Below are positions 3,669 through 22,073 of a stretch of DNA of 64,000 bases, piece after piece; the first letter of the stretch is position 1, and every line of letters starts with the position of its first letter. The translations under genes and the position numbers were made by a program. The notes beneath the pieces are model-generated. The model worked only from the letters and a program-made list of their open reading frames with translations, was not told the DNA's origin and searched no databases. Source of the stretch: Bacilli bacterium. Lineage in GTDB: Bacteria > Bacillota_I > Bacilli_A > RF39 > UBA660. The stretch covers positions 77 to 64,076 of the forward strand of contig JBJEEA010000005.1 of assembly GCA_051872635.1 (NCBI GenBank), in the 5' to 3' direction.

Positions 3669-3786
3669 TTACATTATCCTTCTTTCAAAAAACATCTATA
3701 TTATATCATAATAAAAATAAATTTTCATATAATTTTCTTGAAAAAATATTTGTAAACTGATACAATGTTAATGGAGGTTATTTACT

Positions 3787-4809: not shown

Positions 4810-5253
4810 TTATTCATTGATAAAACCATTCTTTTTTAATTTATTAATAACTTTATCTGAAGATACATCTCCCTCAATTCTCGTAGCAGTTGTCTCTTCT
4901 TTACCTTCTTTAAAAAATATAGTAACAGGAGTAGCTCCATCAAAGCTAATATCATCTTTAAATTTATTATACTCATTTTCATCAAAAGTATTAACATCTG
5001 TATAATAAATCTTAACATCATATTCATTAGCGATCTTTTTTAATTTTGGTTTATAGTTTTGACAATGTGTACAGTCTGTTGCCGATACGCAAAGTATAAA
5101 TGTATCGTTATTATTTACTTTTTCCATAACTTCATCATAACTAAGACTTATAAAATTATTTTTATAAAAAAATATGAAATATATAATACATAATATAATA
5201 ATACATATTATAGTGGCCAATAAAATTATTTTTTTACTTATCTTCTTTTTCAT
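4810..5253 (-). CDS. Membrane-anchored thioredoxin-family protein (CTHC active site)
   Basis: Start set at MKKKISKK (RBS GGTGA 5 nt upstream). N-terminal TM. Thioredoxin motif SATDCTHCQNYKPKL. Faces away from the Tad/T4SS locus. Confidence 0.65.
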   Translation of the reverse strand: MKKKISKKIILLATIICIIILCIIYFIFFYKNNFISLSYDEVMEKVNNNDTFILCVSATDCTHCQNYKPKLKKIANEYDVKIYYTDVNTFDENEYNKFKDDISFDGATPVTIFFKEGKEETTATRIEGDVSSDKVINKLKKNGFINE

Positions 5254-5367
5254 TAATATCACCAATATAATGATACCATTTTTTATATAAAATTGCAAAA
5301 ATGACTTTTAATTTATTAAAAAAAATGATATCATTATATATAGAATAGACTAGTGAAAGGAGTACAT

Positions 5368-8803: not shown

Positions 8804-8816
8804 AAAGGAGGAAAAT

Positions 8817-9665
8817 ATGAATAATTTAAAAGCTTCGATGAAAAAGTTCTTTGGTAACAAAAATACTGTTACCATATTGGGGGTAATATTATGTTTAGTA
8901 ATATTATATATTGGTTATAATTATCGTATCAACAAAGAAGTTGAATTAGTACAAATACCATATGCTAAAGAGACAATTCAGCCAAGAACATATATAACAA
9001 AAGACATGATTGGTACAATGGAAGTGCCTAAAGCGTTCTTAGAGGGAAATTACTATACGAGTGTAAACAGTATTGTTGGTAAGTATTCTAATTATAATAC
9101 TGTTATAGCTAAAGGAAGTATTTTCTATACTGATTTAGTAGTATCAGAGGCAGATCTTCCTGATTCAGCTTTTCAAGATGTACCCGAAGGATATACAGTA
9201 ATTAACTATCCAGTAAATATATCTAGTACTTATGCTAATTCAATGGCTCCAGGTAGCTATATAAATATTTATTATAAGTCACTTAATGATGCTGGTGAAG
9301 TAATGTTTGGCAAATTTATAAGCAATGTCAAAGTATTAGATGTCAAGGATTCTTCAGGAAGACATGTCTTTGAAAATAGTGAAGAGTCTAGAACTCCTGC
9401 TTATATGTTATTTGCTGTCCCAGAAGAGACGCACTTACTTTTAAGAAAAGCATTGTACTTAGATAAATATGATGTTGAATTATTATTAATACCAAATACA
9501 GCAACTTTAAGTGAAAAAGATAAAGTAACCGTAAGCAGTACCCAAATTGAAGAATTTATAAATTCTAAAACCGTATTTGTATCAGTAGATGATTTACCTA
9601 ACATAGAAGATCAAGTAACTGAAGAAGAAAATAATACAAATGAAAATACAAATACCAATCAGTAA
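8817..9665 (+). CDS. CpaB/RcpC-like Flp pilus assembly protein (SAF-domain type)
   Basis: Start at ATG after AAAGGAGG. N-terminal TM, then a SAF-like stretch (ITKDMIGTMEVPKAFLEGNYYTS...IVGKY..TVIAKGSIFYTDLV). Sits immediately upstream of the Tad ATPase. Confidence 0.55.
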   Translation: MNNLKASMKKFFGNKNTVTILGVILCLVILYIGYNYRINKEVELVQIPYAKETIQPRTYITKDMIGTMEVPKAFLEGNYYTSVNSIVGKYSNYNTVIAKGSIFYTDLVVSEADLPDSAFQDVPEGYTVINYPVNISSTYANSMAPGSYINIYYKSLNDAGEVMFGKFISNVKVLDVKDSSGRHVFENSEESRTPAYMLFAVPEETHLLLRKALYLDKYDVELLLIPNTATLSEKDKVTVSSTQIEEFINSKTVFVSVDDLPNIEDQVTEEENNTNENTNTNQ

Positions 9666-9695
9666 TAAAAATAAGAAATAAAAAGGAGGTAAAAA

Positions 9696-11048
9696 ATGGA
9701 AGCCGAATTTACTCAGGTCGATTTTGGCCCTCTAAAAGCCTTTTTAGATAATGATGATGTCACCGATATATCATATAGCAATGGTGGACAAGTCTGGTTA
9801 AAGACATTGTCTCAAGGCGTATACAGAGTAGAAAATACCGGTATTGATAATGCCCTAATGGAAAAAATAGCTTTTCAGTGTGCCAATTCAATGGGAAAAT
9901 CTTTCAATATGGCTAATCCCTTCCTAGATGCCGAATCAGCAGAACTTCGTATGAATTTTGTTCATGACTCTATTGCTAAAAATGGAATAGCAGTCCTTAT
10001 AAGAAAAACACCGGCTAAAATAAGATTACAAAAAGATAAAATAATTGCCGAAGATTATATTAGATTAAATATTCATGACTTTCTCTTAAAATGTGTTGAA
10101 GGACACTGTAATATTATTGTCAGTGGAGAAACTGGTTCAGGTAAAACAGAGTTCATAAAATATTTAGCAGCTCATACCAAAGAAAATGAAAAACTAATAA
10201 CCATTGAAGACACACTAGAATTACACCTTGATAAAATATTTCCTCATCGTGATATCGTTGCTATGAAAACCAATAACATTGCTTCGTATTCTGATGTTTT
10301 GGTAACTTGTATGCGACAAAATCCTAGATGGATATTACTTTCCGAAGTAAGAAGTGCCGAAGCCGTAATGGCTGTTCGAAATTCTATTTCATCAGGTCAT
10401 AATATTTTATCAACAATACACGCTGATAAAGCTGAATCAATTCCAAACAGAATGTATAGCCTACTTGAAACTAATCAAGATATAGGTCAGTTTCTAACTA
10501 CTATCCATAGATATGTTCAACTAGGAGTTCATATTAAAGCTTACTATAGTCAAAAATATAAAAGATTCCATAGAGAAGTAGCTGAAGTTGTGGAATTCTA
10601 CGTAACAGAAGATAATAAAGCCGAGTACAAAATATTATATAAGAAAACACCAGATGGTAAAGAAACAGTAGCTAATCCTTCTAAATACTTACTTAGTTAT
10701 CTAGAAAGTCAAGGCGTGATAATGCCAAAAGATATTTTAGTAAAAGAAGAATTTACTGATGCTAGTAGCATATCTTTAGAAGAAAGTAAAATAGATGAAA
10801 ATTCTTTTGTTATAGATAACAGTACTATAACTCAAAATATTCCAAATAACTATAGTACAAATAATACCATGAATAATAATATTCCAAATAATTATGCTTC
10901 AAGTAATATTGAGGAGAATCAAGCTCCAATTAATGTAGGAGCAAATATGTCTGTAAATGGTCTAAATAGCAACAATATTCCAAATCCATATGCTAGTGCA
11001 GTAATTCCAAATGCTGTTAATATTACTAGTATAAATAATAATGTCTAA
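9696..11048 (+). CDS. cpaF: CpaF/TadA-type secretion ATPase (VirB11/PulE superfamily) with an Asn-rich C-terminal extension
   Basis: Walker A SGETGSGKT, ITIEDTLEL, RQNPRWILLSEVR, His box LSTIHA. Followed by two T2SS-F-like polytopic proteins. Confidence 0.85.
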   Translation: MEAEFTQVDFGPLKAFLDNDDVTDISYSNGGQVWLKTLSQGVYRVENTGIDNALMEKIAFQCANSMGKSFNMANPFLDAESAELRMNFVHDSIAKNGIAVLIRKTPAKIRLQKDKIIAEDYIRLNIHDFLLKCVEGHCNIIVSGETGSGKTEFIKYLAAHTKENEKLITIEDTLELHLDKIFPHRDIVAMKTNNIASYSDVLVTCMRQNPRWILLSEVRSAEAVMAVRNSISSGHNILSTIHADKAESIPNRMYSLLETNQDIGQFLTTIHRYVQLGVHIKAYYSQKYKRFHREVAEVVEFYVTEDNKAEYKILYKKTPDGKETVANPSKYLLSYLESQGVIMPKDILVKEEFTDASSISLEESKIDENSFVIDNSTITQNIPNNYSTNNTMNNNIPNNYASSNIEENQAPINVGANMSVNGLNSNNIPNPYASAVIPNAVNITSINNNV

Positions 11049-11057
11049 ATAAGGTAG

Positions 11058-11960
11058 GTGATAAAATTGGAAATACTTATAATAGGTCTAATAATAATAT
11101 TTATTGTTTCATATAGAACTAAAAGAGGAGAGTCTATATATAAATTTATCTCTACTGAAGCAATAAATACCTATAAAAAAATAGAGCCTTACTCTTTTAA
11201 AGTAATGCGTGAAAAAGTAAAAGAATTAGGCCTTGAATATACTACAAGACAATACTTATTTCAAATAATTGCTTTTGCTGGGTTAGCCGGTGTTATAAGT
11301 TATTTATACTTTTACAATTTATTTATATCTGCTATATACATAATAGTAGCAGTATCATTTATTCCATATATAACCTACCTAAGATGTAAAAGACAGTATA
11401 GTGAATATATCTTCGAACAAGTTCAAGTATACTGTACTAATACCATTATGGAGTTTGCTACTACTCAAGCTTTTGTCAAATCATTAGAGGGAGTAGCAGA
11501 GTCAGGAGTACTAGAAGAACCACTTCTATCAGATGTTAAGACAATGATAGCCTTATCTTATGAAAAAGGCGATGTCTACGACTCTATTAAGTACATGGAT
11601 ACCAAATATCCTTATTATATGGTAAAAAATATGCACCAATTATTTTTACAAGTAACAAAGGAAGGTGCCAAAGATACTAGTGAGACATTTGAAAATATGC
11701 TATCAGATATAGATATTCTAGTAGAAGGTGTATATAGAGATAGAACAGATAGAGCAACCTTCCATAAACAGTTTTTAACTTTTGGTATAGCATTATATGG
11801 AATGGTAGCCTTAATTCAACTACTGATAGGTAAAGAAACTTATATATCTATGATTGATAATATCTTTATTAGAATAATAGTTCATGCTATCGTTATTATA
11901 AATAGTTGGTTTCTCCTTTCTGGAGAAAAATATTACAACGAGAATGTAGGTGCTGAATAA
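11058..11960 (+). CDS. TadB-like platform protein (T2SS-F-like topology)
   Basis: 300 aa. N-terminal TM, TM pair at ~aa 65-105, ~130-aa cytoplasmic domain, C-terminal TMs. Position right after the ATPase. Start could be TTG at 11067. Confidence 0.55.
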   Translation: MIKLEILIIGLIIIFIVSYRTKRGESIYKFISTEAINTYKKIEPYSFKVMREKVKELGLEYTTRQYLFQIIAFAGLAGVISYLYFYNLFISAIYIIVAVSFIPYITYLRCKRQYSEYIFEQVQVYCTNTIMEFATTQAFVKSLEGVAESGVLEEPLLSDVKTMIALSYEKGDVYDSIKYMDTKYPYYMVKNMHQLFLQVTKEGAKDTSETFENMLSDIDILVEGVYRDRTDRATFHKQFLTFGIALYGMVALIQLLIGKETYISMIDNIFIRIIVHAIVIINSWFLLSGEKYYNENVGAE

Positions 11961-12754
11961 TGATTGAAATGTTAATAGTAGCTATCATAGTAATATACAT
12001 TTTTGTTGTAAATGGAAAAATAGATAAAGATAATATTTTTACTAATAACAACAAATTATGTAATTTATTAAAAGAAAAAGATTACGATTTTCTTCTAATA
12101 GCACGATATGGTGATAAAGTTTATAATCCTAATGAAGTATTCATGAAAAGAATAAAAAATGGTATACTAGTAGCAGCAGCGCTTATCTTCTTATTTCTAT
12201 CACAAATGAGCTATATAACTGTAATAGCAGCATTAGTAGTAGGATATTTTGTGTCAAAAATTCAATATATAAGTTTAAAATTATGGTATAAAAGACATCT
12301 TAATTATATTGAATCATTATTACCATATTATTTAAAAAGTTTAGAAGTACTAGTTCATCATTATACAGTACCAGTAGCATTAGCTAAAAGTATCGACGAT
12401 GCTCCTGAAGTATTCAAACCAGGACTAAAAAGATTAATAGACAAAATAGAAGCAGGTGACTCATCAATTGATCCATATATGGATTTTGCTAATGAATATC
12501 CAGTTAGAGATTCAATGCGTATGATGAGATTATTATATAGATTAGGACTTGGAGAACAAGAAAAAAAGCACCAACAGTTAGTTTCCTTCTCTAAGTCAGT
12601 ATCTTCTCTTCAAGCAAAAGCCAGAGAACAAAAATATCAGGCCAGACTTGATACTATGGAGAGAAAGACCATGATTATGATGTGTGTAACCGGATTTGGT
12701 TCACTCGGATTACTATTGATTTCAATATTTATGTTAATGGGAACAGCAATGTAA
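11960..12754 (+). CDS. TadC-like platform protein (T2SS-F-like topology)
   Basis: Start overlaps the previous stop (TAATG). 264 aa with the same TM / cytoplasmic domain / TM layout as the preceding gene. Confidence 0.55.
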   Translation: MIEMLIVAIIVIYIFVVNGKIDKDNIFTNNNKLCNLLKEKDYDFLLIARYGDKVYNPNEVFMKRIKNGILVAAALIFLFLSQMSYITVIAALVVGYFVSKIQYISLKLWYKRHLNYIESLLPYYLKSLEVLVHHYTVPVALAKSIDDAPEVFKPGLKRLIDKIEAGDSSIDPYMDFANEYPVRDSMRMMRLLYRLGLGEQEKKHQQLVSFSKSVSSLQAKAREQKYQARLDTMERKTMIMMCVTGFGSLGLLLISIFMLMGTAM

Positions 12755-12813
12755 ATATTTGAAATATATAAGAAAAGAATAAAAAAAACATATATGAAAG
12801 AAGGTGAGAAATA

Positions 12814-13035
12814 ATGAAAGAAGCAACAGGTGAAGTATCAATGACAGTAATTGTAATCCTTGCAATAGCAGTAATTGGTGGAATAGTAGTAGCACTTGGA
12901 CCGACTCTGAAAGACACAATAATGACAAGATGGGGAAATTCAGATGCAGCAGCATGTAGCTCAGGTGGTGGTACATGGAACGAAACTGATTCTAAAACGG
13001 GCGAAGGATATTGTTCAATGCCAAAAAATAATTAA
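12814..13035 (+). CDS. Flp-like (type IVc) prepilin candidate, 73 aa
   Basis: RBS AAGGTGAG. Short charged leader MKEATG, then a ~25-aa hydrophobic helix VSMTVIVILAIAVIGGIVVALG. Small C-terminal part with 2 Cys. Deviates from the classical G/xxxxEY motif. Confidence 0.45.
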   Translation: MKEATGEVSMTVIVILAIAVIGGIVVALGPTLKDTIMTRWGNSDAAACSSGGGTWNETDSKTGEGYCSMPKNN

Positions 13036-13056
13036 TTAGAGAGTAGGTGATTAATA

Positions 13057-13497
13057 ATGCGAGAAGCCTTTGGTGGAACATTTATGATAAAATTAATGTT
13101 AATCTTTATAGCCATATATATAGCCTTCATAGCGGTAGCTCTAAATTATGCTAAGGCATTTAGAGTAAAGAATGGTATTATTGATATCATTGAGCAAAAT
13201 GAAGGAATAGATGACTATACTGATACTAGTGGTACATTAGGTGAAATAAATGAATATCTAAATAAAGTAAGTTATTATGTATCATTAGATAAAATAGATT
13301 CTTTAAATACAGATGGCAATTATTGTTCTGCAAGAGGCTATTGTATTAAAAGGATAGATGCAACATCGAAAGTAGATAATATTAATAGTTCATATTATAA
13401 AGTAACAACTTATATAAACATTAATTTTCCATTCTTTGGATTAAATTTTAGAATTCCAATAACTGGAGAAACACGTAAAATAGAAAGGATAAGTTAA
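13057..13497 (+). CDS. TadE-like minor (pseudo)pilin candidate
   Basis: Leader MREAFG resembles that of the preceding gene. Followed by the hydrophobic helix FMIKLMLIFIAIYIAFIAVAL and a ~100-aa globular part. Confidence 0.4.
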   Translation: MREAFGGTFMIKLMLIFIAIYIAFIAVALNYAKAFRVKNGIIDIIEQNEGIDDYTDTSGTLGEINEYLNKVSYYVSLDKIDSLNTDGNYCSARGYCIKRIDATSKVDNINSSYYKVTTYININFPFFGLNFRIPITGETRKIERIS

Positions 13498-13498
13498 C

Positions 13499-14521
13499 AT
13501 GGATACTGTAATAGCAAACAAATATAATGACATATTAAGCTCTTTAGATATTGAAGTATCAAAGAAACTAGAAGGAGAGTACGATGTTGAAGAGATAATT
13601 TCAACTTTTGGTAATTACTTTTTCAATAAAATGTTTTTAGATATTACCGCTATTAAAGATTATAAAGATTTTACCAATCTTAAAAAATTATCTATGAGTA
13701 TAAATATGGATAAAGTAATATTACTTTTAGATAAAGATGATGCTATTAGTGATTCTAATGTCTTTTTATCAAAGCTTGTCGATATGGGAATATATAATTT
13801 TACTAAAGATGAAAATAGTCTTATGTATTTATATAATAATCCTAATATTTATCGTGATGTTGCTTATCTTCAAAATAGTACTCCTAGTGAAGAAGAAACT
13901 CCTAATGTAGCACCATTAGAAGTATCTAATAAGAAAATTATTGGAATAAAAAATATAACTGACTCTGCCGGATCCACTACTTTTACTTATTTATTAAAAA
14001 AAGTATTAAGCGATTACTATAGTGTCATGGCTCTTGAAATAGATAAAAGAGAGTTAACTTATTTCAAAGATAAAGACTGTCTTACAATTAAAGAAGATAA
14101 TATTGATGATACTATAAATAAATATAATGGTGTAGATATATTTTTAATAGATTTAGGTAATTCAAAAAAAGAACATTTATGTGATGATGTTATATATTTA
14201 ATTGAACCTAGTACTATTAAATTAAATAAATTAGTCTTAGTAAATCCAGGTATATTTAAAGAATTAGAAGGTAAAAAAGTTATTTTAAATAAGAGTTTAT
14301 TAAGTGAAAATGATATAGCTAACTTTGAAGTAGAATCAGGTATAAGAATATTTTATAATATGCCTCCTATTAACGATAAAGAAGATAAGGATATAAATGA
14401 TAAAATACTTCCTCTATTAGCAAAACTTGGCTATGTAAAAGAGTCTCCAGAAGAAGAAATACCTACCAAAAAATCAATATTTGACTTTTTAAAAAAAATA
14501 AACAATGAAAAAGGCAAATAA
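13499..14521 (+). CDS. TadZ/CpaE-like protein (N-terminal receiver-like region plus degenerate MinD/ParA-like domain)
   Basis: C-terminal half IIGIKNITDSAGSTTFTYLL...ALEIDK...IFLIDLGNS looks like a MinD/ParA fold with a deviant P-loop lacking Lys, as reported for TadZ. Assigned from position and layout only. Confidence 0.35.
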   Translation: MDTVIANKYNDILSSLDIEVSKKLEGEYDVEEIISTFGNYFFNKMFLDITAIKDYKDFTNLKKLSMSINMDKVILLLDKDDAISDSNVFLSKLVDMGIYNFTKDENSLMYLYNNPNIYRDVAYLQNSTPSEEETPNVAPLEVSNKKIIGIKNITDSAGSTTFTYLLKKVLSDYYSVMALEIDKRELTYFKDKDCLTIKEDNIDDTINKYNGVDIFLIDLGNSKKEHLCDDVIYLIEPSTIKLNKLVLVNPGIFKELEGKKVILNKSLLSENDIANFEVESGIRIFYNMPPINDKEDKDINDKILPLLAKLGYVKESPEEEIPTKKSIFDFLKKINNEKGK

Positions 14522-14526: not shown

Positions 14527-14555
14527 TTGACTTTTGTGAATTTTTAGTGTAATAT
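14527..14555 (+). promoter_or_regulatory. Candidate sigma-A promoter for the VirB2-like gene
   Basis: TTGACT, 17-nt spacer, TAATAT; ~30 nt upstream of the RBS GAGGAGG. Confidence 0.45.
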
Positions 14556-14583
14556 ATAAGTATAATTTGAGGAGGAATAAAAT

Positions 14584-14913
14584 ATGTATTTTTTAGATGG
14601 ATGTCCTGCTGGGTTGGAACCAATTTTAGGAATTGTTAATTATGTTATAAATGCTATTATGATAGGAGTTCCAATATTATTAATAATATTTGGTATGATT
14701 GATATAGGTAAAGCTGTTATTTCAAGTAAAGATGATGAAGTAAAAAAAGCTACTAAAGCATTTGGAAGAAGATTCCTTGCTGCCGTTGGAGTATTCGCAA
14801 TAGTATGGCTTGTAACATTTGTATTTACTACAATAGCATCTGCTACAAATGATGCCGTTAATCCAGATGAAGCAAATTGGCAATCATGTTGGGCACAAAT
14901 AAGAAAATCGTAA
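14584..14913 (+). CDS. VirB2/TrbC-like pilin-type conjugal transfer protein (109 aa, two TM helices)
   Basis: Two hydrophobic helices joined by a charged loop (VPILLIIFGMIDIGKAVISSKDDEVKKATKAFGRRFLAAVGVFAIVW). Same motif recurs at the C-terminus of the 15451 ORF. Confidence 0.5.
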   Translation: MYFLDGCPAGLEPILGIVNYVINAIMIGVPILLIIFGMIDIGKAVISSKDDEVKKATKAFGRRFLAAVGVFAIVWLVTFVFTTIASATNDAVNPDEANWQSCWAQIRKS

Positions 14914-14918
14914 TCTAA

Positions 14919-14953
14919 AAAATTCAGTTAAAAAACATGACTGAATTTTTTTA
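14919..14953 (+). terminator. Rho-independent terminator after the VirB2-like gene
   Basis: AATTCAGT / ACTGAATT stem followed by TTTTTTT. Confidence 0.65.
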
Positions 14954-15350
14954 TAGTAGGATTAGACAAAAATATAAATTAATAAAAAATAATTCTTTTA
15001 TATATTTTGAAGTGTATAAAAGCCAAATCAAAATAGTGGAAGAGTATTTTATTGTGTCTAAGAGGAGTCGGATAAGCATATAGCCTATTAAGTCATGAAA
15101 CAAAAGAAAATTTTTCTATTACAAAATAAACAAAACAATAGTTGAAAAAAATAGTTTGTTAAATACCCCGTTAAATACATTATATAGTAATATAGATATA
15201 TTTTTGAAAGCCTTTTCAAATAAAATAAATAACAAATATAATAGTATTTTAAAATATTTAGAATAAAACAAAAAATTTCTCAAATTATTTTCTAAAATTG
15301 AAGAAAGTAACTTAAGACAAATGAGCAAAACTACCAAAAAAAAATAAAAT

Positions 15351-15392
15351 TGAAAAAGGAATCATTTTTATTCAAAAAATGATTCCTTTTTT
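15351..15392. terminator. Strong hairpin, possibly a bidirectional terminator, with no upstream ORF
   Basis: AAAAGGAATCATTTT / AAAATGATTCCTTTT perfect stem flanked by an A-run and a T-run. Nothing convincing is encoded between 14954 and 15350. Confidence 0.5.
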
Positions 15393-15402
15393 CTTACTAG
15401 TA

Positions 15403-15411
15403 TGTTATAAT
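15403..15411 (+). promoter_or_regulatory. Extended -10 element (TGtTATAAT) upstream of the T4SS module
   Basis: TGTTATAAT read directly, ~40 nt upstream of the ATG at 15451. No good -35. Confidence 0.35.
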
Positions 15412-15450
15412 TTAAATGTGATAGATTAACTTCCAAGGAGTAGATTATAT

Positions 15451-17286
15451 ATGAAAAAAAATAAAAAGCAAATATTATTGACAATTATAGTATTATCAAT
15501 ATCAACAATATTATTTACAAGTAGAGTAGATGCAGTAGTCATGTGGATGCAGTGTGTTCCCAGTCCTGAAGATGAAATGGATTGTGGAGGAGATTGCGAT
15601 GATTATGGATTATATAACACTTTTGCATTGATACATTATGCGAGCGATGGCGTAAGAAATTTGGCATATAATCCAAACAATTTTTATAGTGGCCAATATC
15701 CAGTTTATATTATGGCAGAAAAAACTAATGGTAAACTTGTGGGTAATAGTTGTTGGTATGAAGAATATTTTGATGATATAGAGGAATGTGAAGATGAAAA
15801 AGAAAAAATGGTTCCTATTTCAAAGATGCTTGAAGGTGTTTGCCCAACAGGAGTGAGAAAAAATGATCACTACACTGCTGGTTTTATGAATGCTATTGGA
15901 GCTGGTTGGATATATAAAAAAGTAGTAAAAGATTTTATTGTAGTGTATGGTACTACTCCTGCTTATGAACGCGAAGTTTTAAATGAAAATATTTTTGTTA
16001 TTTATGGTTTTCAAAAAAATAACGAAAAAGCAACTGACTATATAATTGAGGGATATAATTCTTCAGGCGAATATGGTTATGCAACAACATGGGAAGATGA
16101 AGAATCATTTAAGGATAATTTAAATTTGAAAGAAAATGATTCAGATTATGATTTAATAAACGAAGAAGAATATGCTACTAATCATATGACTTGGGCAGGT
16201 ATGACACAAGCACGTAGAGTAGCCAATTTAGGTAGAAATTATTTTAAATTATTGGATACTGAGGACGCTTGGCTGATTAATACACAAGAAGATTCCAAAT
16301 TCGTAAAGAAAGAATATGATGATAATAACAATTTAACAATATATCGCAGTGATGATAGCAATAAGAACTTTTATAGTTGGGTTTCTTCTTGGTATGAAAA
16401 ATATGACGAGGTACTATCTAGCCAAATAAAAATAATAAAAGATTTAAAAGAAAAATCAAAATATGTAAAAGCACTAGAGGTAGCTAAAGAGATAAGTAAT
16501 GCTGTTGATGAAGGAAAAGAATATCGATTTGATGAAGATTATGCTTCTGAAATGGTCCTTGTTATGGAAGAGGCTTATGATTTGTTAGTTCCTATTTTAG
16601 GTGATAATGATCCTATATATGATTCTTATGGAGAAGATTGCAAGGTAACTGGGAAAAAGGTCAATGATCCATCGGCGTCAATACTAACACAGTTTAATTG
16701 TGAAACATTTGGAAAGTCTTCAATAAGTAAACTTCCAAATAAAGTAAATGATGGAATGCTAAATTCAATGATTTCTTCAGCACTAAGTAATGCTGTTAAT
16801 GAGTATAATAATTCTAGTGTTTCAATTGATAAAATACGTAGTACCGCTGAAGAATATGCTAAATATTATGCTATTGCTATTAAATATATTAAAAAATATA
16901 ATTTGGCTACTGGTGATGCAGCAGCGATTATTGATGATCTTACTGACAATTATAATGAAATGACAAGAAGCTTTGGCGTTGAAACAATCGTTAGTTGTGA
17001 TGACTTATTTAGTGATGACCTAAGAAACAAAATAGGTAGTTATCTTAATATAGTTAAAATAGCAGTACCGATAATATTAATTGGTTTTGGAATAATTGAT
17101 TTTACAAAAGCAATTTTTGCCGGAGATGAAGAAAAAATGAAAAAGGCTCAAAAAGATTTTATTATGAGACTAGGAATTGCAATGTTGTTTTTCTTAGTTC
17201 CAACTATAGTAGATCTTTTGCTAAGATTAGCTAATAAGGTTTGGTATTTTATTGAGCCTGGATCTTGTGGTATATTTGATGCATAG
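15451..17286 (+). CDS. Secreted Cys-rich 611-aa protein with a C-terminal VirB2/TrbC-like two-helix domain
   Basis: RBS AAGGAG. Signal peptide ending RVDAV. ~10 Cys. Last ~80 aa (VPIILIGFGIIDFTKAIFAGDEEKMKKAQKDFIMRLGIAMLFFLVP) align with the 109-aa ORF at 14584. Confidence 0.6.
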   Translation: MKKNKKQILLTIIVLSISTILFTSRVDAVVMWMQCVPSPEDEMDCGGDCDDYGLYNTFALIHYASDGVRNLAYNPNNFYSGQYPVYIMAEKTNGKLVGNSCWYEEYFDDIEECEDEKEKMVPISKMLEGVCPTGVRKNDHYTAGFMNAIGAGWIYKKVVKDFIVVYGTTPAYEREVLNENIFVIYGFQKNNEKATDYIIEGYNSSGEYGYATTWEDEESFKDNLNLKENDSDYDLINEEEYATNHMTWAGMTQARRVANLGRNYFKLLDTEDAWLINTQEDSKFVKKEYDDNNNLTIYRSDDSNKNFYSWVSSWYEKYDEVLSSQIKIIKDLKEKSKYVKALEVAKEISNAVDEGKEYRFDEDYASEMVLVMEEAYDLLVPILGDNDPIYDSYGEDCKVTGKKVNDPSASILTQFNCETFGKSSISKLPNKVNDGMLNSMISSALSNAVNEYNNSSVSIDKIRSTAEEYAKYYAIAIKYIKKYNLATGDAAAIIDDLTDNYNEMTRSFGVETIVSCDDLFSDDLRNKIGSYLNIVKIAVPIILIGFGIIDFTKAIFAGDEEKMKKAQKDFIMRLGIAMLFFLVPTIVDLLLRLANKVWYFIEPGSCGIFDA

Positions 17287-17310: not shown

Positions 17311-19410
17311 ATGATTTATTTCTTGTCTTTTTGGTCAGATGTTGGCTTTTCTATAAAACAAGCACTTAGAACTTTTTCTTGTAAAATTGCTTGTGTATTA
17401 TATGATTTTATTGTTGACTTATATAATGTTTTTATGTATACTGCTAGAGCTGAAATATTAAGTAGTAGTTTTGTTCAGCAAATATATAATAAAGTGGGAA
17501 TGCTTTTGGGTATCTTTATGGTTTTTAAATTATCCTTTTCTCTAATACAATCACTAGTTGATCCTAATAAATTTACAGATGAAAAAACTGGCTTTGGTGG
17601 AATTATAAAGAGAAGTGTTATTTCAATAGTACTTTTGGGAATCACGCCTTCACTTTTTCGTATGGCTTTTGATTTTCAAAACTTAATTATTGGTTCGGCA
17701 AATAATACTGATAATATTATTTATAAGATTATTGTTGGCTCAGCACCATATAATGATGCTGCGAGTTTTGGCAACATAATTGCTTCAGAGTTGTATTTTG
17801 GCTTTTATACTGAAAACTCTCCTTATAAATTAGATGAGGGAATCGATATTGAGTATCCTGATGGTGAAGCAAAAATAGTTACTAAAAACTATGCCAATCT
17901 GAAAAGTGAAATAGAAAATGGTGCTTCTTTTAATACCACTATTGATTATCTGTCTGTTACAAATAGTGGGCAGTATGTTATTAATTGGAATGGATTGTTT
18001 GCAATAGCAATGGCTGCTTTCATGATTTACATATTGGTTACATACTGTATACAGGTAGCAACACGTGTAATACAACTAGCTTATTTGCAATTAGTTGCTC
18101 CAGTTCCTATTTTATCATATATTTCAGATCCAGATGGAGCCTTTAAAAATTGGACAAGGCAATGTTTGACTACTTATTTAGATTTATTTATAAGATTAGC
18201 AATAATATACTTTATAATAACAGTTAGTACTCAAATATTACAAGCACTAAAAGATGCAGAAAGCATATTATATCAAAGCACCGGACTTGATCAGTTAAAT
18301 GATGCCGATACAATGTGGTGGGTAGTAATATTTTTAATTATTGGTTTATTAATGTTTGGAAAAAGAGTACCAGATTTATTAAAAGATTTATTCCCTAATA
18401 TGGGTGGTGGTGCCGCTACTATTGGATTTGGAATAAAAAGTCCAAAAAAAACACTTGCAGATATTCCTATAGTAGGAGGTCCTACAAATAAGGCATTAGG
18501 ATATGCAGGAAACCTTGGGAAAAAAGCAGGAAAATTCGCATGGAGCCACACCGGCGGAGCAGCAGGCAAATTTGTTTGGGGCCATACCGGAGGTAAGATT
18601 AAGAATAACTATAACAGATGGAAAGACGATAGAACAGGATATAAAGAAGGATACAAAAAAGATAAAGAATCAGAAGATGCATGGAAAGAATATGGAAATG
18701 ACTTTAATGTTGATCCTTCAGCATCTCCAGAAGAAAAATTGGTTGCATATAAAAAGGCATTTCATAGCAGCCGAGATAAAAATGGTGAATATGCAGCATC
18801 TTATGCACAATTAGAAAGAACTGGTGAGGCTTTGAAAAAATATAGAGGTGACACTAACTCAGCAGAGTATAGAAAACTTCTTGCAGACAAAGAAAAAGCA
18901 CAAAAGAATCATGATGTAAATAGAGAAAAATATAAAGATCTTGCTAGAAGAGAAGATCAACTTAAAAGATATGCTAATAGGCATCCAGAAGTTAAAAAGA
19001 ATACTTCTTCCGCATCAACTACCTCATCATCTTCTTCATCATCACCTTCAGCAACTTCTAATTCTTATCAAAGATCAAATTATAAAGGAACAAATCAACC
19101 AATTAATGAGCAAAACTCTATGTTTGCAAACATGAGTGATGAAGAATGGAAAGCTAGACGTAGTCAAAACGAGCAAGAAATAAGAGAAGAAAACTTAAGA
19201 TTAAGAGAAGCCAATCGAAATGATCCTAATCAATATTTTGATAAAATGGATCAACAGTATGCAGATGAATATTTAAAGAATAATGGTGTATCCGATGATT
19301 TTGATATGCAGTATGAAACCAAAAGAGGCCAAATGGAAGATGCATATAAAAAATTAGGATGGAGTCAAGACAATGATGGAAAATGGACCAAAAATGGCAA
19401 TGGTTCTTAA
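17311..19410 (+). CDS. VirB6/TrbL/TcpH-like polytopic channel protein with a ~325-aa hydrophilic C-terminal extension
   Basis: RBS AAGGAGG. At least 6 predicted TM helices in aa 1-360. Position between pilin-like and VirB3/VirB4 genes. C-terminal half is charged, with a poly-Ser tract. Confidence 0.55.
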   Translation: MIYFLSFWSDVGFSIKQALRTFSCKIACVLYDFIVDLYNVFMYTARAEILSSSFVQQIYNKVGMLLGIFMVFKLSFSLIQSLVDPNKFTDEKTGFGGIIKRSVISIVLLGITPSLFRMAFDFQNLIIGSANNTDNIIYKIIVGSAPYNDAASFGNIIASELYFGFYTENSPYKLDEGIDIEYPDGEAKIVTKNYANLKSEIENGASFNTTIDYLSVTNSGQYVINWNGLFAIAMAAFMIYILVTYCIQVATRVIQLAYLQLVAPVPILSYISDPDGAFKNWTRQCLTTYLDLFIRLAIIYFIITVSTQILQALKDAESILYQSTGLDQLNDADTMWWVVIFLIIGLLMFGKRVPDLLKDLFPNMGGGAATIGFGIKSPKKTLADIPIVGGPTNKALGYAGNLGKKAGKFAWSHTGGAAGKFVWGHTGGKIKNNYNRWKDDRTGYKEGYKKDKESEDAWKEYGNDFNVDPSASPEEKLVAYKKAFHSSRDKNGEYAASYAQLERTGEALKKYRGDTNSAEYRKLLADKEKAQKNHDVNREKYKDLARREDQLKRYANRHPEVKKNTSSASTTSSSSSSSPSATSNSYQRSNYKGTNQPINEQNSMFANMSDEEWKARRSQNEQEIREENLRLREANRNDPNQYFDKMDQQYADEYLKNNGVSDDFDMQYETKRGQMEDAYKKLGWSQDNDGKWTKNGNGS
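18525..18597 (+). repeat. In-frame tandem peptide repeat GKFAWSHTGGAA / GKFVWGHTGGK within the VirB6-like protein
   Basis: Read directly in translation and DNA (aaattcgcatggagccacaccggcgga / aaatttgtttggggccataccggaggt). Confidence 0.8.
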
Positions 19411-19433: not shown

Positions 19434-19760
19434 GTGAATGGATTTTTAGTACCAGCAAATGCTAAAAGAGGTACTCTTATATTAAATATATTTAGACCAT
19501 TTGATTTAATTATGTTTGGAACAGGAGCACTAGTTACTTTATTATTACTTGTAATTGTTAATTCAAATGATACAGTAATGATATTACTATCCTGTCTTCC
19601 TGTTGCAATAACTGGGTTCCTAGTTGTTCCGGTACCTAACTATCATAATGTTCTATGTGCTATACAAAGTATATTTAAATTTTATTCAGAAAGAAGAAAT
19701 TATATTTGGAAGGGTTGGTGTTTCTATGAAAAATTCGGAAGCGAAGAAGAAAAAAAGTAA
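19434..19760 (+). CDS. VirB3/TcpE/PrgI-like small membrane protein
   Basis: GTG start after AAGGAGTG. 108 aa, two TM helices. Lies immediately upstream of and overlapping VirB4, as in Gram-positive T4SS loci. Confidence 0.45.
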   Translation: MNGFLVPANAKRGTLILNIFRPFDLIMFGTGALVTLLLLVIVNSNDTVMILLSCLPVAITGFLVVPVPNYHNVLCAIQSIFKFYSERRNYIWKGWCFYEKFGSEEEKK

Positions 19761-20289
19761 TTCAAAATATACAGAAGATTGGCTACCAATAAAAGCCATA
19801 TCTAATGGATGTATTCTTTTGGATAATAAAATGAAAGTAACTGGTGTTAAGATAAGACCTAGAAATATTTTTATCTTAGATCAGATAACTCAAGACAATG
19901 TTATTATTGCTCTAAAGAATTTTTACAATACCATTGATTTTGAGTTTTGGCTAATATCTGCAGACCGTCCAGTTGATTTAAATAGTTATTTAGCAAGATT
20001 ACAACTATTATATAATCAAACTCCAAATCCTGCAATTAGGAAACTTATAAATCAAGATATTGATAAAGCCAATAATTTTATGAATAATAATGTTACCGAT
20101 ACAGAGTATTATATATTATTCAAAGAAAAGAATGATGATTTAATCCAAAAAAATCTTCGTACATTAATAACAGGACTTGCTAATTCTGGACTTGAATCTA
20201 CTCAAGTATCAAATGATGATTTAAGAATAATATTAGATAATTTCTTAAATAGTGGAATGACAACTAATTTTGGGACGGTGATTTCGTAA
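19726..20289 (+). CDS. VirB4-family N-terminal domain encoded as a separate 187-aa ORF
   Basis: DWLPIKAISNGCILLDNKMKVTGVKIRPRNIFIL...NFYNTIDFEFWLIS matches the N-terminal region of Gram-positive VirB4 (TcpF/Orf16-like). Start chosen at the internal ATG of the track ORF. Confidence 0.6.
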   Translation: MKNSEAKKKKSNSKYTEDWLPIKAISNGCILLDNKMKVTGVKIRPRNIFILDQITQDNVIIALKNFYNTIDFEFWLISADRPVDLNSYLARLQLLYNQTPNPAIRKLINQDIDKANNFMNNNVTDTEYYILFKEKNDDLIQKNLRTLITGLANSGLESTQVSNDDLRIILDNFLNSGMTTNFGTVIS

Positions 20290-22073
20290 TGAATTTAAAA
20301 AGTGAACTAGCTCCTAAGGGGTTACAATTTAATCCAGCTGATTTTGTTATTAGTGATAGATATGCTACCATTTTAACAGTAATATCATATCCTAGATTTA
20401 TCGGAGCTGGATACCTGGCTAATTTAACTAATATGTCTGGTGTAAAATTAGTAATTAAACATATTCCTCTTCCGTTTTCAGTACTTGCTAAAATGTTAAA
20501 TAAAGAAATAGCCGACTTAAAAAGTAAATATCAACAAGAAAGAGATAGAACTATTCAAGAAAGAATTAGGCAAGATGTAGATTCATTAGAGTACTTTATT
20601 CAGCAGTTTACTGCTTCCCAAGCTAAAACTTTTGATTTTCAAATGCATATTATGGTAACTGCTGATACTAAAGAAGAACTTGAAATGAAGAAAGTTAATC
20701 TTAAGAACTATTTAGATGCTATGGAACTTAGAGCTATACCATTAAGGTTTGAACAAGAAAGAGTTCTAAAATCGATTCTTCCTATTTTTGATAAGCAACC
20801 AATTGAAAGTAGAATAGGTACTCCTATGCCTTCTCCTACTATGGCAGCAATGTATCCATTTATTTTTGATAGTATTAAAGATGATGGCTTATCAACATTA
20901 CTTGGCGTTGATTTTTCTGGTGGTGTAGTATTATTTAATCAATTCTTATATCAGTTAAAGAAAGAAAGCAATAGAAACAATGCTAATATGATTATTTTAG
21001 GTACATCTGGTAGTGGTAAATCCACAGCAGCTAAACTAATATTAAGAAGTCATATTCGAAATGGTTATCAAATAGTAGCAGTTGATCCCGAAGGCGAAAT
21101 AAGTGAAATGACAAGAATGTATGGAGGAGATGTCATAGATCTTGGTAAAGGTGGAGAATATGGTATGGTAAATCCACTTGAAGTAGTAATGGATGCTGAT
21201 GAAAATGAAATTAAAAATGGACTAGGATATACTGTATTAAATAAAACATTGCAGTCATTAAAAGCATTTATGAAATATTATTCACCTGATATTGAAGAGG
21301 ATGTTCTTGCACTATTTAGTGAAGTAGTCCAAGATACATATGCCAGGTTTGGAATAACATTTACTTCAGATTTTTCAAAATTCACTTCAAATGATTATCC
21401 AACTTTTGGAGATGTATATATAACAGTAACTAGTAAGTTAACATCTATGACAGTAAAAACACATGAAAGAGATGTTATGGAAAGACTAGAATTAAAACTA
21501 AGACCATTAGTTAGAGAACTTAAATATTATTTTAATGGTCATACTTCAATTAATACAGAAAGTGATTTCCTCGTGTTCAATATAAAAGAACTTATGAATT
21601 CAGATGTAAATATAAGAAATGCTTTATTATTTAATGTTCTTAAGTTTGCTTGGGGATTATGCTTAAACCCCAATGTTAATACTGTTCTATCAGTTGATGA
21701 AGCACATGTTTTACTTGGCGCAAAAAATGAATTAGGTGCTGAATTTTTAGCCCAAGTTCAAAGAAGAGCAAGAAAATATAACACAGGTACAATAATAATT
21801 ACTCAACAGCCATCAGACTTTGTCGCAGATGGAATATTAATGCATGGTAAAGCCATATTTGATAACTCTTCATATTATTTAGTTATGGGATTAAAGAAAC
21901 AATCTGTAGAAGATTTATCAATGTTAATAGACTTAAACGATAATGAGAAAGAAGGAATAAAAAGATTTAGTCAAGGTGAAGCATTATTTGTATGTGGAAA
22001 TAGAAGAATGCAAATTAATGTAGTTGTAACTGAAGATGAATTAGAGTCATTTGGCTCAGGTGGTGGATTATAG
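20289..22073 (+). CDS. virB4: VirB4-family T4SS ATPase (middle and ATPase domains, 594 aa)
   Basis: ISDRYATILTVISYPRF, Walker A GTSGSGKST, Walker B LSVDEAH, IIITQQPSD. ATG overlaps the previous stop (TAATG) and has its own GGTGA RBS. Confidence 0.85.
   Translation: MNLKSELAPKGLQFNPADFVISDRYATILTVISYPRFIGAGYLANLTNMSGVKLVIKHIPLPFSVLAKMLNKEIADLKSKYQQERDRTIQERIRQDVDSLEYFIQQFTASQAKTFDFQMHIMVTADTKEELEMKKVNLKNYLDAMELRAIPLRFEQERVLKSILPIFDKQPIESRIGTPMPSPTMAAMYPFIFDSIKDDGLSTLLGVDFSGGVVLFNQFLYQLKKESNRNNANMIILGTSGSGKSTAAKLILRSHIRNGYQIVAVDPEGEISEMTRMYGGDVIDLGKGGEYGMVNPLEVVMDADENEIKNGLGYTVLNKTLQSLKAFMKYYSPDIEEDVLALFSEVVQDTYARFGITFTSDFSKFTSNDYPTFGDVYITVTSKLTSMTVKTHERDVMERLELKLRPLVRELKYYFNGHTSINTESDFLVFNIKELMNSDVNIRNALLFNVLKFAWGLCLNPNVNTVLSVDEAHVLLGAKNELGAEFLAQVQRRARKYNTGTIIITQQPSDFVADGILMHGKAIFDNSSYYLVMGLKKQSVEDLSMLIDLNDNEKEGIKRFSQGEALFVCGNRRMQINVVVTEDELESFGSGGGL

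What the first reader, a model, noticed from the sequence alone, without database searches (positions are those of the whole stretch)
14527..14953. VirB2/TrbC-like pilin gene as its own promoter-to-terminator unit between the Tad genes and the T4SS genes
Seen in sequence: the 109-aa two-helix protein (…VPILLIIFGMIDIGKAVISSKDDEVKKATKAFGRRF…) has three strong expression signals.

- A candidate TTGACT-17-TAATAT promoter.
- A strong GAGGAGG RBS.
- A clean terminator right after it.

It lies on the Tad side of a ~500-bp non-coding gap (14954-15450) that precedes the rest of the T4SS genes.

Established knowledge: major pilin and VirB2 genes are often separately and highly expressed. Gram-positive T4SSs are generally not thought to build VirB2 pili, although small pilin-like TM proteins are annotated in some Firmicute and Mollicute ICEs.

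Inference: two filament-type subunits, Flp-like and VirB2-like, are encoded 1.5 kb apart. This raises the question of which filament is made and whether the systems interact.
Basis: partly seen in the sequence, partly recalled or inferred. Interest (0 to 1): 0.6.

Follow-up and report, generated by a model that had tools for sequence, protein, structure and literature searches.

The report
Pilin-like hairpin gene of a T4SS
A small, separately transcribed two-helix membrane protein sits at the junction of a Tad pilus cluster and a Gram-positive-type DNA-transfer (type IV secretion) cluster in an uncultured small-genome gut bacterium (order RF39). It is best read as the pilin-like (VirB2-type) subunit of that machine, which nearly the whole bacterial family carries.

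Summary
**Observation: confirmed.** ORF 14584-14913 (109 aa) is a real gene.
- It has a TTGACT-17-TAATAT promoter, a GAGGAGG ribosome-binding site and a hairpin terminator.
- The promoter box is conserved in 74 of 87 orthologous loci, against 4.7% of random windows. A downstream hairpin is present in 79 of 87.

**Interpretation: partly supported.**
- The window protein is below threshold for Pfam PF18895 T4SS_pilin (12.6 bits; cut-off 26.6). However, 27 of 46 orthologues hit that family (best E 1.6e-7).
- No match was found to TrbC/VirB2 (PF04956), to solved pilins, or to PrgF. Foldseek returns only generic hairpins.
- It meets the published operational criteria for Gram-positive VirB2-like proteins: size, two transmembrane helices, a charged cytoplasmic loop, and a position near virB6. 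The locus is collinear with pCF10 prgF-prgL.

**New here.**
- The family is near-universal in the order (145 of 151 genomes), as is the single-copy split VirB4 (59 of 61).
- The Tad-hairpin-T4SS order recurs in 46 of 80 species loci.
- An invariant Cys pair flanks the hairpin.
- The same module anchors CHAP, C39-like, GDSL and beta-lactamase-fold exo-enzymes.
- The ~500-bp "gap" is a decayed gene.
- No relaxase was found.

The scan met this family before on other DNA (e1-3680280), with the same reading.

The parts
14527..14555 (+). sigma-70-type promoter TTGACT-17-TAATAT (TG directly before the -10 box)
   Evidence: Conserved in 74 of 87 orthologous loci, against 4.7% of random windows.
14569..14575 (+). 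Shine-Dalgarno GAGGAGG, 8 nt before the ATG
   Evidence: AAGGAGG/GGAGG is conserved in close relatives.
14584..14913 (+). 109-aa leaderless two-TM hairpin protein: N-tail with Cys7, TM1 13-39, basic loop 40-63, TM2 64-88, C-tail with Cys102. Pilin-like (PF18895-type) T4SS subunit.
14917..14951 (+). terminator-like hairpin (14-bp stem, 7-nt loop) running into a U tract
   Evidence: dG -11.9, z -4.2. A homologous TTCAGT...ACTGAA hairpin follows the gene in L006.
14954..15350 (+). decayed remnant of a 148-aa gene (P0121 family) that is intact between the pilin-like gene and the next gene in L006/L007/L018; has an in-frame TAA
   Evidence: Not repeated elsewhere in the genome. No Rfam family.
15352..15392 (+). 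18-bp hairpin terminator, conserved. In close relatives it follows the pilin-like gene directly.
   Evidence: dG -18.7, z -6.2.
15403..15411 (+). extended -10 box TGtTATAAT of the 611-aa gene
   Evidence: conserved almost base for base in relatives.
15451..17286 (+). 611-aa secreted protein whose last ~90 aa are a paralogue of the 109-aa hairpin
   Evidence: PF18895 E 5.4e-4; E 7.6e-8 to the 109-aa protein; 24.4 bits.
17311..19410 (+). VirB6/TrbL-like polytopic membrane protein
   Evidence: (PF19597 E 2.2e-7, above cut-off).
19434..19760 (+). VirB3/TcpE/PrgI-position small membrane protein
   Evidence: TcpE, weak, E 0.009. Position as in pCF10.
19624..22073 (+). VirB4 ATPase encoded as two ORFs (N piece ends at 20289; C piece 20289-22073)
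   Evidence: NF045975: 1.2e-14 and 2e-105. The split is conserved across the order.
22098..23690 (+). membrane-anchored cell-wall hydrolase (Peptidase_M23 + Phage_lysozyme2), the PrgK/VirB1 analogue
24706..26883 (+). type IV coupling protein (VirD4/TraG)
8781..14521 (+). Tad-type pilus cluster (CpaB-like, TadA ATPase, TadB, TadC, Flp-like 12814-13035, pseudopilin-like, 340-aa TadZ-position protein) directly upstream
   Evidence: Synteny.

Best explanation
The 109-aa protein is the stand-alone, probably major, pilin-like subunit of a chromosomal Gram-positive-type (MPF-FATA-like) T4SS. This is the VirB2 role, equivalent in position to PrgF.

**Shown**
- It is a leaderless helical hairpin. Both short tails are predicted to lie outside the membrane. 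The basic, very conserved loop is predicted to lie in the cytoplasm.
- An invariant Cys flanks each end of the hairpin.
- The gene is transcribed from its own conserved promoter and ends at its own terminator.
- It is a core gene of the lineage and is lost together with the T4SS.

**Inferred**
- The protein accumulates in the membrane and is extracted and stacked on the VirB6-like pentamer, powered by the split VirB4. This would form a short conduit or pilus through the wall, with the loop lining the lumen.
- Cys7-Cys102 would form an extracellular disulfide tying the two ends together. This would be a functional analogue of the head-to-tail cyclisation of T-pilin and TrbC.
- Paralogues carrying the same hairpin plus an ectodomain or an exo-enzyme would co-assemble as minor, decorating subunits.
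- The adjacent Tad pilus would provide cell-cell contact.
For: **Family link**
- PF18895 T4SS_pilin is hit by 27 of 46 orthologues (best E 1.6e-7). CagC (PF16943) is hit by 5 of 46.
- The paralogous C-terminus of the neighbouring 611-aa protein scores 24.4 bits against PF18895 and E 7.6e-8 against the 109-aa protein.

**Gene order**
- The order 109 / 611 / VirB6 / VirB3-like / VirB4 / hydrolase / 298 aa / T4CP is collinear with pCF10 prgF-G-H-I-J-K-L...pcfC.
- A second, ICE-type T4SS in the same genome has the order small PF18895-like protein / VirB6 / VirB3 / VirB4.

**Published criteria**
- The criteria for Gram-positive VirB2-like proteins are met: 50-150 aa, two TM helices, a charged cytoplasmic loop, and proximity to virB6 (bioRxiv 10.64898/2025.12.18.695078).

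**Distribution and synteny**
- 145 of 151 genomes of the order carry the family. 59 of 61 carry the single-copy VirB4.
- 4 of 5 hairpin-less genomes also lack VirB4.
- Of 80 species loci, 46 have Tad and T4SS on either side, 6 have the T4SS only and 10 have Tad only. None of the loci with adequate flanks on both sides lacks both.
- In L009-L011 the chromosomal flank QueH/PedC-like/SpoU is the same as in the window, the Tad cluster is missing, and the small gene directly precedes the T4SS.

**Expression unit**
- The promoter, ribosome-binding site and terminator are conserved. This is the arrangement expected for an abundant structural subunit.

**Protein features**
- The loop is the best-conserved segment (63% identity, against 40-54% for the TM helices and 18-35% for the tails).
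- Among 150 cluster representatives, Cys7 is found in 136 of 137 aligned and Cys102 in 146 of 146 aligned.
Against: - The window protein itself is below the Pfam and NCBIfam cut-offs (12.6 and 18.3 bits). Weak PF18895 hits also 'ring' in 11 of 14 control genomes.
- No similarity was found to PF04956, to solved VirB2/TraA/TrbC pilins, or to PrgF.
- The fold search finds only generic hairpins such as HtrII and ATP synthase subunit c.
- There is no cleavable leader, unlike classical VirB2 proteins.
- The same module anchors exo-enzymes encoded far from any T4SS. The domain family is very large, with 9653 clusters, so a generic anchor role is possible.
- In 10 species loci the best orthologue stays beside Tad while the T4SS lies elsewhere.
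- No pilus, polymer or transcript has been observed.
Confidence: 0.6

Rival explanations
1. The hairpin is a generic membrane-anchor or export module of this lineage for surface enzymes and ectodomains. The stand-alone 109-aa form is then a non-polymerising membrane protein, for example a scaffold or chaperone that pairs with the anchored enzymes. Its place next to the T4SS reflects co-regulation rather than a pilin role.
For: - The domain is fused N-terminally to CHAP, Peptidase_C39_2 and GDSL-like enzymes in housekeeping contexts of the same genome.
- Elsewhere it is fused to beta-lactamase-fold, C39_2 and GDSL domains.
- There are 1-16 copies per genome and 9653 clusters.
- The fold is indistinguishable from other two-TM hairpins.
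Against: - The stand-alone orthologue always lies at the Tad/T4SS junction and is lost together with the T4SS.
- PF18895 and CagC hits point to T4SS pilins.
- The cytoplasmic loop, rather than the membrane-spanning part, is the most conserved segment. That is unexpected for a mere anchor.
Confidence: 0.22
2. The protein is an accessory inner-membrane component of the Tad pilus machine rather than of the T4SS.
For: - In 10 of 80 species loci the best orthologue remains directly downstream of the Tad genes while the T4SS is elsewhere in the genome.
- All 5 hairpin-less genomes also lack an orthologous TadA.
Against: - Six loci, plus L009-L011, keep the gene with the T4SS and have no Tad cluster upstream.
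- In the split genomes the T4SS still keeps its own hairpin-domain gene next to VirB6.
- No known Tad component has this architecture, and the protein has no class III (prepilin) leader.
- The family hits T4SS pilin models.
Confidence: 0.1
3. The protein is a holin-like or other small lytic or regulatory membrane protein unrelated to either secretion system.
For: Small size and two TM helices only.
Against: - No PHROG family matches at E <= 0.01 for 8 family members.
- There is no phage context.
- It is a core gene of the lineage.
Confidence: 0.03

Closest known systems
Pfam PF18895 T4SS_pilin (VirB2-like pilins of Patescibacteria and monoderm T4SS loci; Microb Genom 2025, PMC12102498)
   Same: - A two-TM hairpin of about 70 core residues, encoded near virB4/virB6.
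- It occurs as arrays of 2-11 divergent copies. In RF39 loci up to 6 hairpin-domain genes lie in tandem.
- It belongs to a chromosomal T4SS of small-genome bacteria with no relaxase found.
   Different: - The window protein scores only 12.6 bits (cut-off 26.6). Only some orthologues reach significance.
- The RF39 family adds an invariant Cys pair and a strongly conserved motif, P-x6-G-M-x-D-L-G-K-A-V...K...R.
- It is fused to exo-enzymes and is tied to a Tad cluster.
PrgF (PrgF_B2) of Enterococcus faecalis pCF10 and the VirB2-like proteins of Gram-positive conjugative plasmids (bioRxiv 10.64898/2025.12.18.695078)
   Same: - A small protein with two TM helices joined by a charged cytoplasmic loop, with no recognisable homology to classical VirB2.
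- It is encoded one gene upstream of the VirB6-like gene, in a collinear prgF-to-prgL-like operon.
   Different: - No sequence similarity (hhalign probability 0.5%).
- 109 aa against 75 aa, with longer helices and a longer loop.
- It forms its own monocistronic unit.
- It is a chromosomal core gene rather than a plasmid gene.
- The AlphaFold pilus model on VirB6 that defines PrgF_B2-like candidates could not be run here.
Classical conjugative pilins VirB2/TrbC/TraA (Pfam PF04956; T-pilus, RP4, F, R388)
   Same: Hairpin topology with both ends outside and a charged loop inside. Encoded in a T4SS locus. The two ends are possibly tied together, here by a disulfide and there by cyclisation in T-pilin and TrbC (inference).
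   Different: - No long cleaved leader.
- No HMM or structural match.
- Monoderm host.
NCBIfam NF045849 Mbov_0395/MMCAP2_0565 pilin-like conjugal transfer protein of Mycoplasma ICEs
   Same: - The gene order pilin-like / VirB6-like (Mbov_0396) / VirB4 (Mbov_0397) is the same.
- The window's VirB6-like and VirB4 proteins have their best NCBIfam hits in that ICE family.
   Different: - The small protein scores 18.3 bits against a cut-off of 40.
- Only 10 of 46 orthologues hit the family (best E 1.3e-3). That is no better than spurious membrane-protein hits such as MamI.

Membership tests
Pfam PF18895 T4SS_pilin | HMM score at or above the gathering threshold (26.6 bits) | tested here: inconclusive
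   - The window protein scores 12.6-13.2 bits, which does not meet the threshold.
- 27 of 46 orthologues hit at E <= 0.1, best 1.6e-7.
- The paralogous domain of the 611-aa neighbour scores 24.4 bits.
- Membership therefore holds for the family by transitivity, not for this sequence on its own.
Classical VirB2/TrbC/TraA pilins (PF04956) | Sequence-profile or structural similarity to known pilins | tested here: not met
   - PF04956 is not among the families shown for the 46 orthologues.
- No pilin appears in the PDB profile searches.
- Foldseek's top hits are HtrII and ATP synthase subunit c, all with E >= 2.
Classical VirB2/TrbC/TraA pilins (PF04956) | Long N-terminal leader removed by signal peptidase | tested here: not met
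   TM1 starts at residue 13. The N-terminus MYFL..C is conserved from Met1, with a conserved ribosome-binding site.
Classical VirB2/TrbC/TraA pilins (PF04956) | Two TM helices, both termini outside, charged loop in the cytoplasm | tested here: met
   - The AF2 model has helices 9-46 and 50-87.
- The loop has 7 K/R and 4 D/E; neither TM helix nor the N-tail has any K/R.
- Fusions place extracellular enzymes or ectodomains at either end.
PrgF_B2-type VirB2-like proteins of Gram-positive T4SS (preprint criteria) | 50-150 aa, two TM helices with PrgF-like topology, encoded close to virB6 | tested here: met
   The protein is 109 aa. Its gene ends 2.4 kb upstream of the VirB6-like gene with one gene between, as prgG lies between prgF and prgH.
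PrgF_B2-type VirB2-like proteins of Gram-positive T4SS (preprint criteria) | Confident AlphaFold model (ipTM > 0.65) of about 10 copies assembled on a VirB6 pentamer | not testable with these tools
   Structure prediction folds single chains only.
PrgF_B2-type VirB2-like proteins of Gram-positive T4SS (preprint criteria) | Essential for T4SS function; loop lines the pilus lumen | not testable with these tools
   This needs genetics or labelling, and the organism is uncultured.
NCBIfam NF045849 Mbov_0395 pilin-like conjugal transfer protein | HMM score at or above the cut-off (40 bits) | tested here: not met
   The score is 18.3 bits. 10 of 46 orthologues hit the family, best E 1.3e-3.
Flp/Tad pilin | Class III signal peptide (G/xxxxEY-type) followed by a single hydrophobic helix | tested here: not met
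   The sequence has no such leader and has two TM helices. The Flp-like gene is a different ORF, at 12814-13035.
Phage holin | Match to a holin family; lysis-cassette context | tested here: not met
   No PHROG hit. No phage match. The neighbours are Tad and T4SS genes.

The most novel reading that the evidence does not exclude
The small-genome gut bacteria of order RF39 carry, as a vertically inherited core trait, a composite Tad-pilus plus T4SS machine with no relaxase found. Its subunit is a disulfide-clamped, leaderless VirB2-like hairpin.
- The hairpin doubles as a modular 'plug' that mounts ectodomains and cell-wall or lipid hydrolases (CHAP, C39-like, GDSL, beta-lactamase fold) onto the same structure.
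- The machine would then serve contact-dependent interaction with other cells (DNA or nutrient acquisition, or an epibiotic lifestyle), parallel to the essential T4SS and pilin arrays of Patescibacteria, rather than plasmid conjugation.
- It would also show that PF18895-type pilins are native to MPF-FATA-like systems of Bacillota.
Probability: 0.2. Interest if true: 0.8.

Novelty: new variant of a known kind. Interest (0 to 1): 0.5.

Why it matters
**For the field**
- VirB2-like subunits of monoderm T4SSs have only just been recognised, and their sequences are almost unalignable.
- This family offers a large, well-conserved and easily recognised branch: 9653 clusters at 50% identity, with a sharp signature motif and a Cys pair.

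**For the biology of RF39**
- The family sits in a core chromosomal system of an abundant but uncultured gut lineage.
- Near-universal conservation of the Tad / hairpin / T4SS arrangement in genomes of 0.6-1.6 Mb suggests that the machine is central to how these bacteria live.
- The hairpin-enzyme fusions suggest a testable way in which a Gram-positive T4SS could carry its own wall-breaching enzymes.

**For annotation**
- The analysis explains two odd features of the window: the 500-bp "gap" and the "orphan" hairpin.

Tried and rejected
- **Plasmid and phage collections.** No DNA or protein match, so this is not a known plasmid or phage gene.
- **PDB by profile.** Both A1 and A2 returned only chance GPCR or ATP-synthase hairpins.
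- **hhalign.** The family against PrgF of pCF10, and against the PF18895-like protein of the genome's second T4SS, gave probability <= 0.5%.
- **NCBIfam Mbov_0395.** The hit is weak and no better than spurious membrane-protein hits, so it was rejected as evidence.
- **PHROGs (holin idea).** No hit.
- **Rfam on the gap.** Nothing near a gathering score. The insert is not a repeat in the genome. The small-RNA or mobile-element idea was dropped in favour of a decayed gene.
- **R388 record for a TrwL yardstick.** Not in the collection.
- **Relaxase search.** Six Pfam families gave no hit. The power is limited: the genome is 90.7% complete, and its ICE-type element on contig C14 gave no hit either.
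Full report
**1. What is there**

The window is contig C5 of a 1.25-Mb assembly in 55 contigs, about 27% GC and 90.7% complete.

Upstream and downstream signals:
- TTGACT (14527-14532), a 17-nt spacer, then TAATAT (14550-14555).
- GAGGAGG at 14569-14575, 8 nt before the ATG.
- Three bases after the stop codon, a 14-bp hairpin at 14917-14951 that runs into a U tract (dG -11.9 kcal/mol, z -4.2).

In this AT-rich DNA the promoter match alone is not special. The scan found 44 promoter-like sites against 35.9 +/- 7.2 expected. The simple terminator scanner missed the hairpin. Comparative data decide the matter (section 4).

**2. The protein**

- *Fold.* AlphaFold2 with a 46-sequence alignment gives a helical hairpin (helices 9-46 and 50-87) plus a short C-terminal helix (99-108). 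Mean pLDDT is 75.6.
- *Hydropathy.* There are two hydrophobic spans, 13-39 and 64-88. The connecting loop (40-63) holds 7 K/R and 4 D/E. Neither TM helix nor the N-terminal tail has any K/R. By the positive-inside rule both ends lie outside and the loop lies in the cytoplasm.
- *No leader.* The N-terminus MYFL..C is conserved from Met1.
- *Conservation.* The loop is the most conserved segment (63% mean identity, against 40-54% for the TM helices and 18-35% for the tails).
- *Signature.* Among 150 representatives of 50%-identity clusters the signature is nearly invariant:
  - Cys7 in 136 of 137 aligned
  - Pro30 in 150 of 150
  - Gly37 in 142
  - Asp40 in 144
  - Lys43 in 141
  - Arg63 in 139, plus 11 Lys
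  - Phe71 in 149
  - Cys102 in 146 of 146 aligned

One Cys therefore lies just outside each end of the hairpin. I infer, but have not shown, an extracellular disulfide that ties the two tails together. A membrane-anchored thioredoxin with a CTHC motif is encoded at 4810-5298 (-), next to the cluster.

**3. Family and taxon**

- The protein has 193 close homologues with no name and no Pfam domain on record.
- Relatives occur in 178 GTDB species genomes, all uncultured gut "Bacilli/Tenericutes". They include Clostridium sp. CAG:302 (77% identity) and Candidatus Coprovivens.
- The literature places CAG-302 and Coprovivens (family CAG-1000) in order RF39 (PMC7676259; PMC8035907).
- A profile of the family hits 145 of 151 genomes sampled from the order (82 of 86 genera), with 1-16 copies per genome.
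- In a library of 1.84 billion cluster representatives it hits 9653 proteins at E <= 1e-3 and 5371 at E <= 1e-10.

**4. The expression unit is conserved**

- In orthologous loci the -35/-10 pair, the AGGAGG site and a downstream hairpin recur. This holds even where the upstream gene differs, for example L009, where the gene follows a SpoU methylase.
- 74 of 87 loci have at most 2 mismatches to TTGACA-N16-18-TAATAT, 22-36 nt upstream of the start. Only 4.7% of 2000 random 95-nt windows from the same loci do.
- 79 of 87 have a hairpin of dG <= -6 within 90 nt after the stop.

**5. The "gap"**

In the closest relatives (L012-L016, L020) the small gene is followed, after about 30 nt, by three elements that correspond base for base to window 15352-15450:
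- the hairpin that corresponds to window 15352-15392;
- the TGtTATAAT box;
- the ribosome-binding site of the next gene.

The extra 14954-15350 aligns with a 148-aa gene (P0121). That gene is intact between the two genes in L006, L007 and L018.
- Nucleotide identity is 71% over the 3' half.
- The window frame reads LNTLYSNIDIFLKAFSNK...YLE*NKKFLKLFSKIEE, against P0121 LNNLYNRINIFLYNAFSNK...YLENSRKILKLFSQIEN. It has an in-frame TAA.

The gap is a pseudogene remnant, not a regulatory spacer. The "orphan" hairpin is the ancestral terminator. No Rfam family reaches its gathering score, and the insert is not repeated in the genome.

**6. Is it VirB2-like?**

Direct tests are negative or weak.
- The window protein scores 12.6 bits on PF18895 T4SS_pilin (cut-off 26.6) and 18.3 bits on NF045849 (cut-off 40).
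- Weak PF18895 matches also appear in 11 of 14 control genomes.
- No solved pilin is found by profile.
- Foldseek returns only generic hairpins, all with E >= 2.
- hhalign to PrgF gives 0.5% probability.

Indirect tests are positive.
- 27 of 46 orthologues hit PF18895 (best E 1.6e-7). 5 of 46 hit CagC, the Helicobacter VirB2 family.
- The C-terminus of the neighbouring 611-aa protein is a clear paralogue (E 7.6e-8). It scores 24.4 bits on PF18895.
- NF045849 is hit by only 10 of 46 (best E 1.3e-3), no better than spurious membrane-protein hits. I do not count it as evidence.

**7. Context**

Genes downstream of the 109-aa gene:

| Gene | Identity |
|---|---|
| 611 aa | ectodomain-hairpin fusion |
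| 699 aa | VirB6/TrbL-like (PF19597, above cut-off) |
| 108 aa | VirB3/TcpE-position protein |
| two ORFs | split VirB4 |
| 530 aa | M23 + lysozyme hydrolase |
| 298 aa | membrane protein |
| 725 aa | VirD4-type coupling protein |

- This order is collinear with pCF10 prgF-prgG-prgH(B6)-prgI(B3)-prgJ(B4)-prgK-prgL...pcfC.
- A December 2025 preprint shows that PrgF is an essential VirB2-like protein. It also reports that small two-TM proteins next to virB6 exist in about 95% of Gram-positive conjugative plasmid classes.
- The 109-aa protein meets those operational criteria.
- A second, ICE-type T4SS on contig C14 of the same genome has the order: 114-aa PF18895-like protein / VirB6-like / VirB3-like / unsplit VirB4.

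**8. Tad or T4SS?**

Species loci, classified by their flanks:

| Flanking clusters | Loci (of 80) |
|---|---|
| Tad upstream and T4SS downstream | 46 |
| Tad only | 10 |
| T4SS only | 6 |
| undetermined (short contigs) | 18 |

None of the loci with adequate flanks on both sides lacks both clusters.

- *Tad-only genomes.* Five were checked. The T4SS lies elsewhere in each, with its own hairpin-domain gene next to VirB6 in all four where the contig extended that far.
- *L009-L011.* The left flank (QueH, PedC-like, SpoU) is the same as in the window. The whole Tad cluster is missing, and the small gene directly precedes the T4SS.
- *Breakpoints* thus fall on either side of the gene. That fits a separate transcription unit at the junction of two modules that are usually kept together.
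- *VirB4.* The C piece is single-copy, at 65-95% identity, in 59 of 61 genomes of the order. It always lies in a frame of about 600 aa, so the split is ancestral.
- *Hairpin-less genomes.* Of five in the family, four lack VirB4 and all five lack an orthologous TadA. The fifth has VirB4 at a contig end.
- *Flanks and relaxases.* The cluster is flanked by housekeeping genes (SufB, a class II aminoacyl-tRNA synthetase, PFOR, RecA). Six relaxase Pfam families give no hit in the genome. The power of that negative is limited by 90.7% completeness.
- *Conclusion.* This looks like a vertically inherited core system rather than a mobile element.

**9. The module is reused**

In this genome the same hairpin, with both Cys, forms the N-terminus of three chromosomal exo-enzymes, encoded next to housekeeping genes such as a topoisomerase I-like gene and rpoZ (judged from their sequences only):
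- a CHAP enzyme (E 2.5e-9);
- a Peptidase_C39_2 enzyme (E 1.6e-9);
- a GDSL-like enzyme (below threshold).

Elsewhere it is fused to beta-lactamase-fold, C39_2 and GDSL domains. Many loci carry two small copies plus up to five or six larger proteins with a C-terminal hairpin. This recalls the PF18895 "pilin arrays" of Patescibacteria (PMC12102498). In every architecture the enzyme or ectodomain ends up outside the cell, which supports the predicted topology.

**10. Reading**

- *Best explanation (about 0.6).* The protein is the stand-alone, abundantly expressed VirB2-type subunit of a chromosomal MPF-FATA-like T4SS. The hairpin fusions act as minor or decorating subunits, and the Tad pilus serves as the contact device.
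- *Main rival (about 0.22).* The hairpin is a generic membrane anchor, and its stand-alone form is not a polymer.
- *Minor rivals.* A Tad-specific role (about 0.1) and a holin-like role (about 0.03).
- *Novelty.* The pilin-like nature is not new in kind: PF18895 exists, there is the PrgF preprint, and an earlier follow-up in this scan (e1-3680280) reached the same reading on another genome. The new points are the leaderless, Cys-clamped variant, its modular fusions, the lineage-wide Tad-hairpin-T4SS supercluster with a split VirB4, and the explanation of the gap.

Noticed in passing
window 14954-15350: The 'non-coding gap' is a decayed copy, with an in-frame TAA, of a 148-aa cytoplasmic-protein gene. 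That gene is intact between the pilin-like gene and the ectodomain-hairpin gene in L006, L007 and L018. The close relatives L012-L016 lack it altogether.
   Followed up: yes
window 19624-22073; relatives G007-G065: VirB4 is encoded as two ORFs (about 185 aa plus 594 aa). This split is conserved across the order: 59 of 61 genomes have one C piece in a 594-621-aa open frame. It is therefore an ancestral split gene, not a frameshift error.
   Followed up: partly
window 4810-5298 (-) and 3787-4305 (+): A membrane-anchored thioredoxin with a CTHC motif and a PedC-like (DUF6568) protein without CxxC flank the Tad cluster. They are candidates for oxidising the invariant Cys pair of the hairpin domain and the Cys-rich ectodomains.
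   Followed up: no
G000 contig C14 (L102 522-10495): The same genome holds a second, ICE-type T4SS. It comprises a 910-aa surface protein with a C-terminal membrane anchor (adhesin-like by sequence, no family search run), a 219-aa sortase-like protein (not scanned), a resolvase, a 137-aa SSB-like protein (not scanned), a 114-aa PF18895-like protein (21 bits), a VirB6-like protein, a VirB3-like protein and an unsplit 836-aa VirB4.
   Followed up: partly
L012-L016, L020, about 40-75 nt upstream of the small gene: A perfect 13-bp inverted repeat, AAGTAATTGTCAA/TTGACAATTACTT, overlaps the -35 box in several relatives and looks like an operator. The window lacks it. A similar palindrome was noted by the scan in another genome (e1-4711958).
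   Followed up: no
G000 C42:76647-76883, C22:6110-6334, C3:80378-80587 (L002, L003, L005): Three chromosomal exo-enzymes (GDSL-like, CHAP, Peptidase_C39_2) use the same Cys-flanked hairpin as their membrane module, far from any T4SS genes.
   Followed up: partly
window 3069-4807 versus L009-L011: The left flank QueH / PedC-like / SpoU methylase is shared with genomes in which the whole Tad cluster is missing at this site and the pilin-like gene follows SpoU directly. This marks a clean module boundary just upstream of the pilin promoter.
   Followed up: partly
whole genome G000: Six relaxase Pfam families (PF03432, PF02486, PF01076, PF03389, PF08751, PF07514) give no hit in the genome, although it has two T4SS loci and a coupling protein. 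The genome is 90.7% complete.
   Followed up: partly
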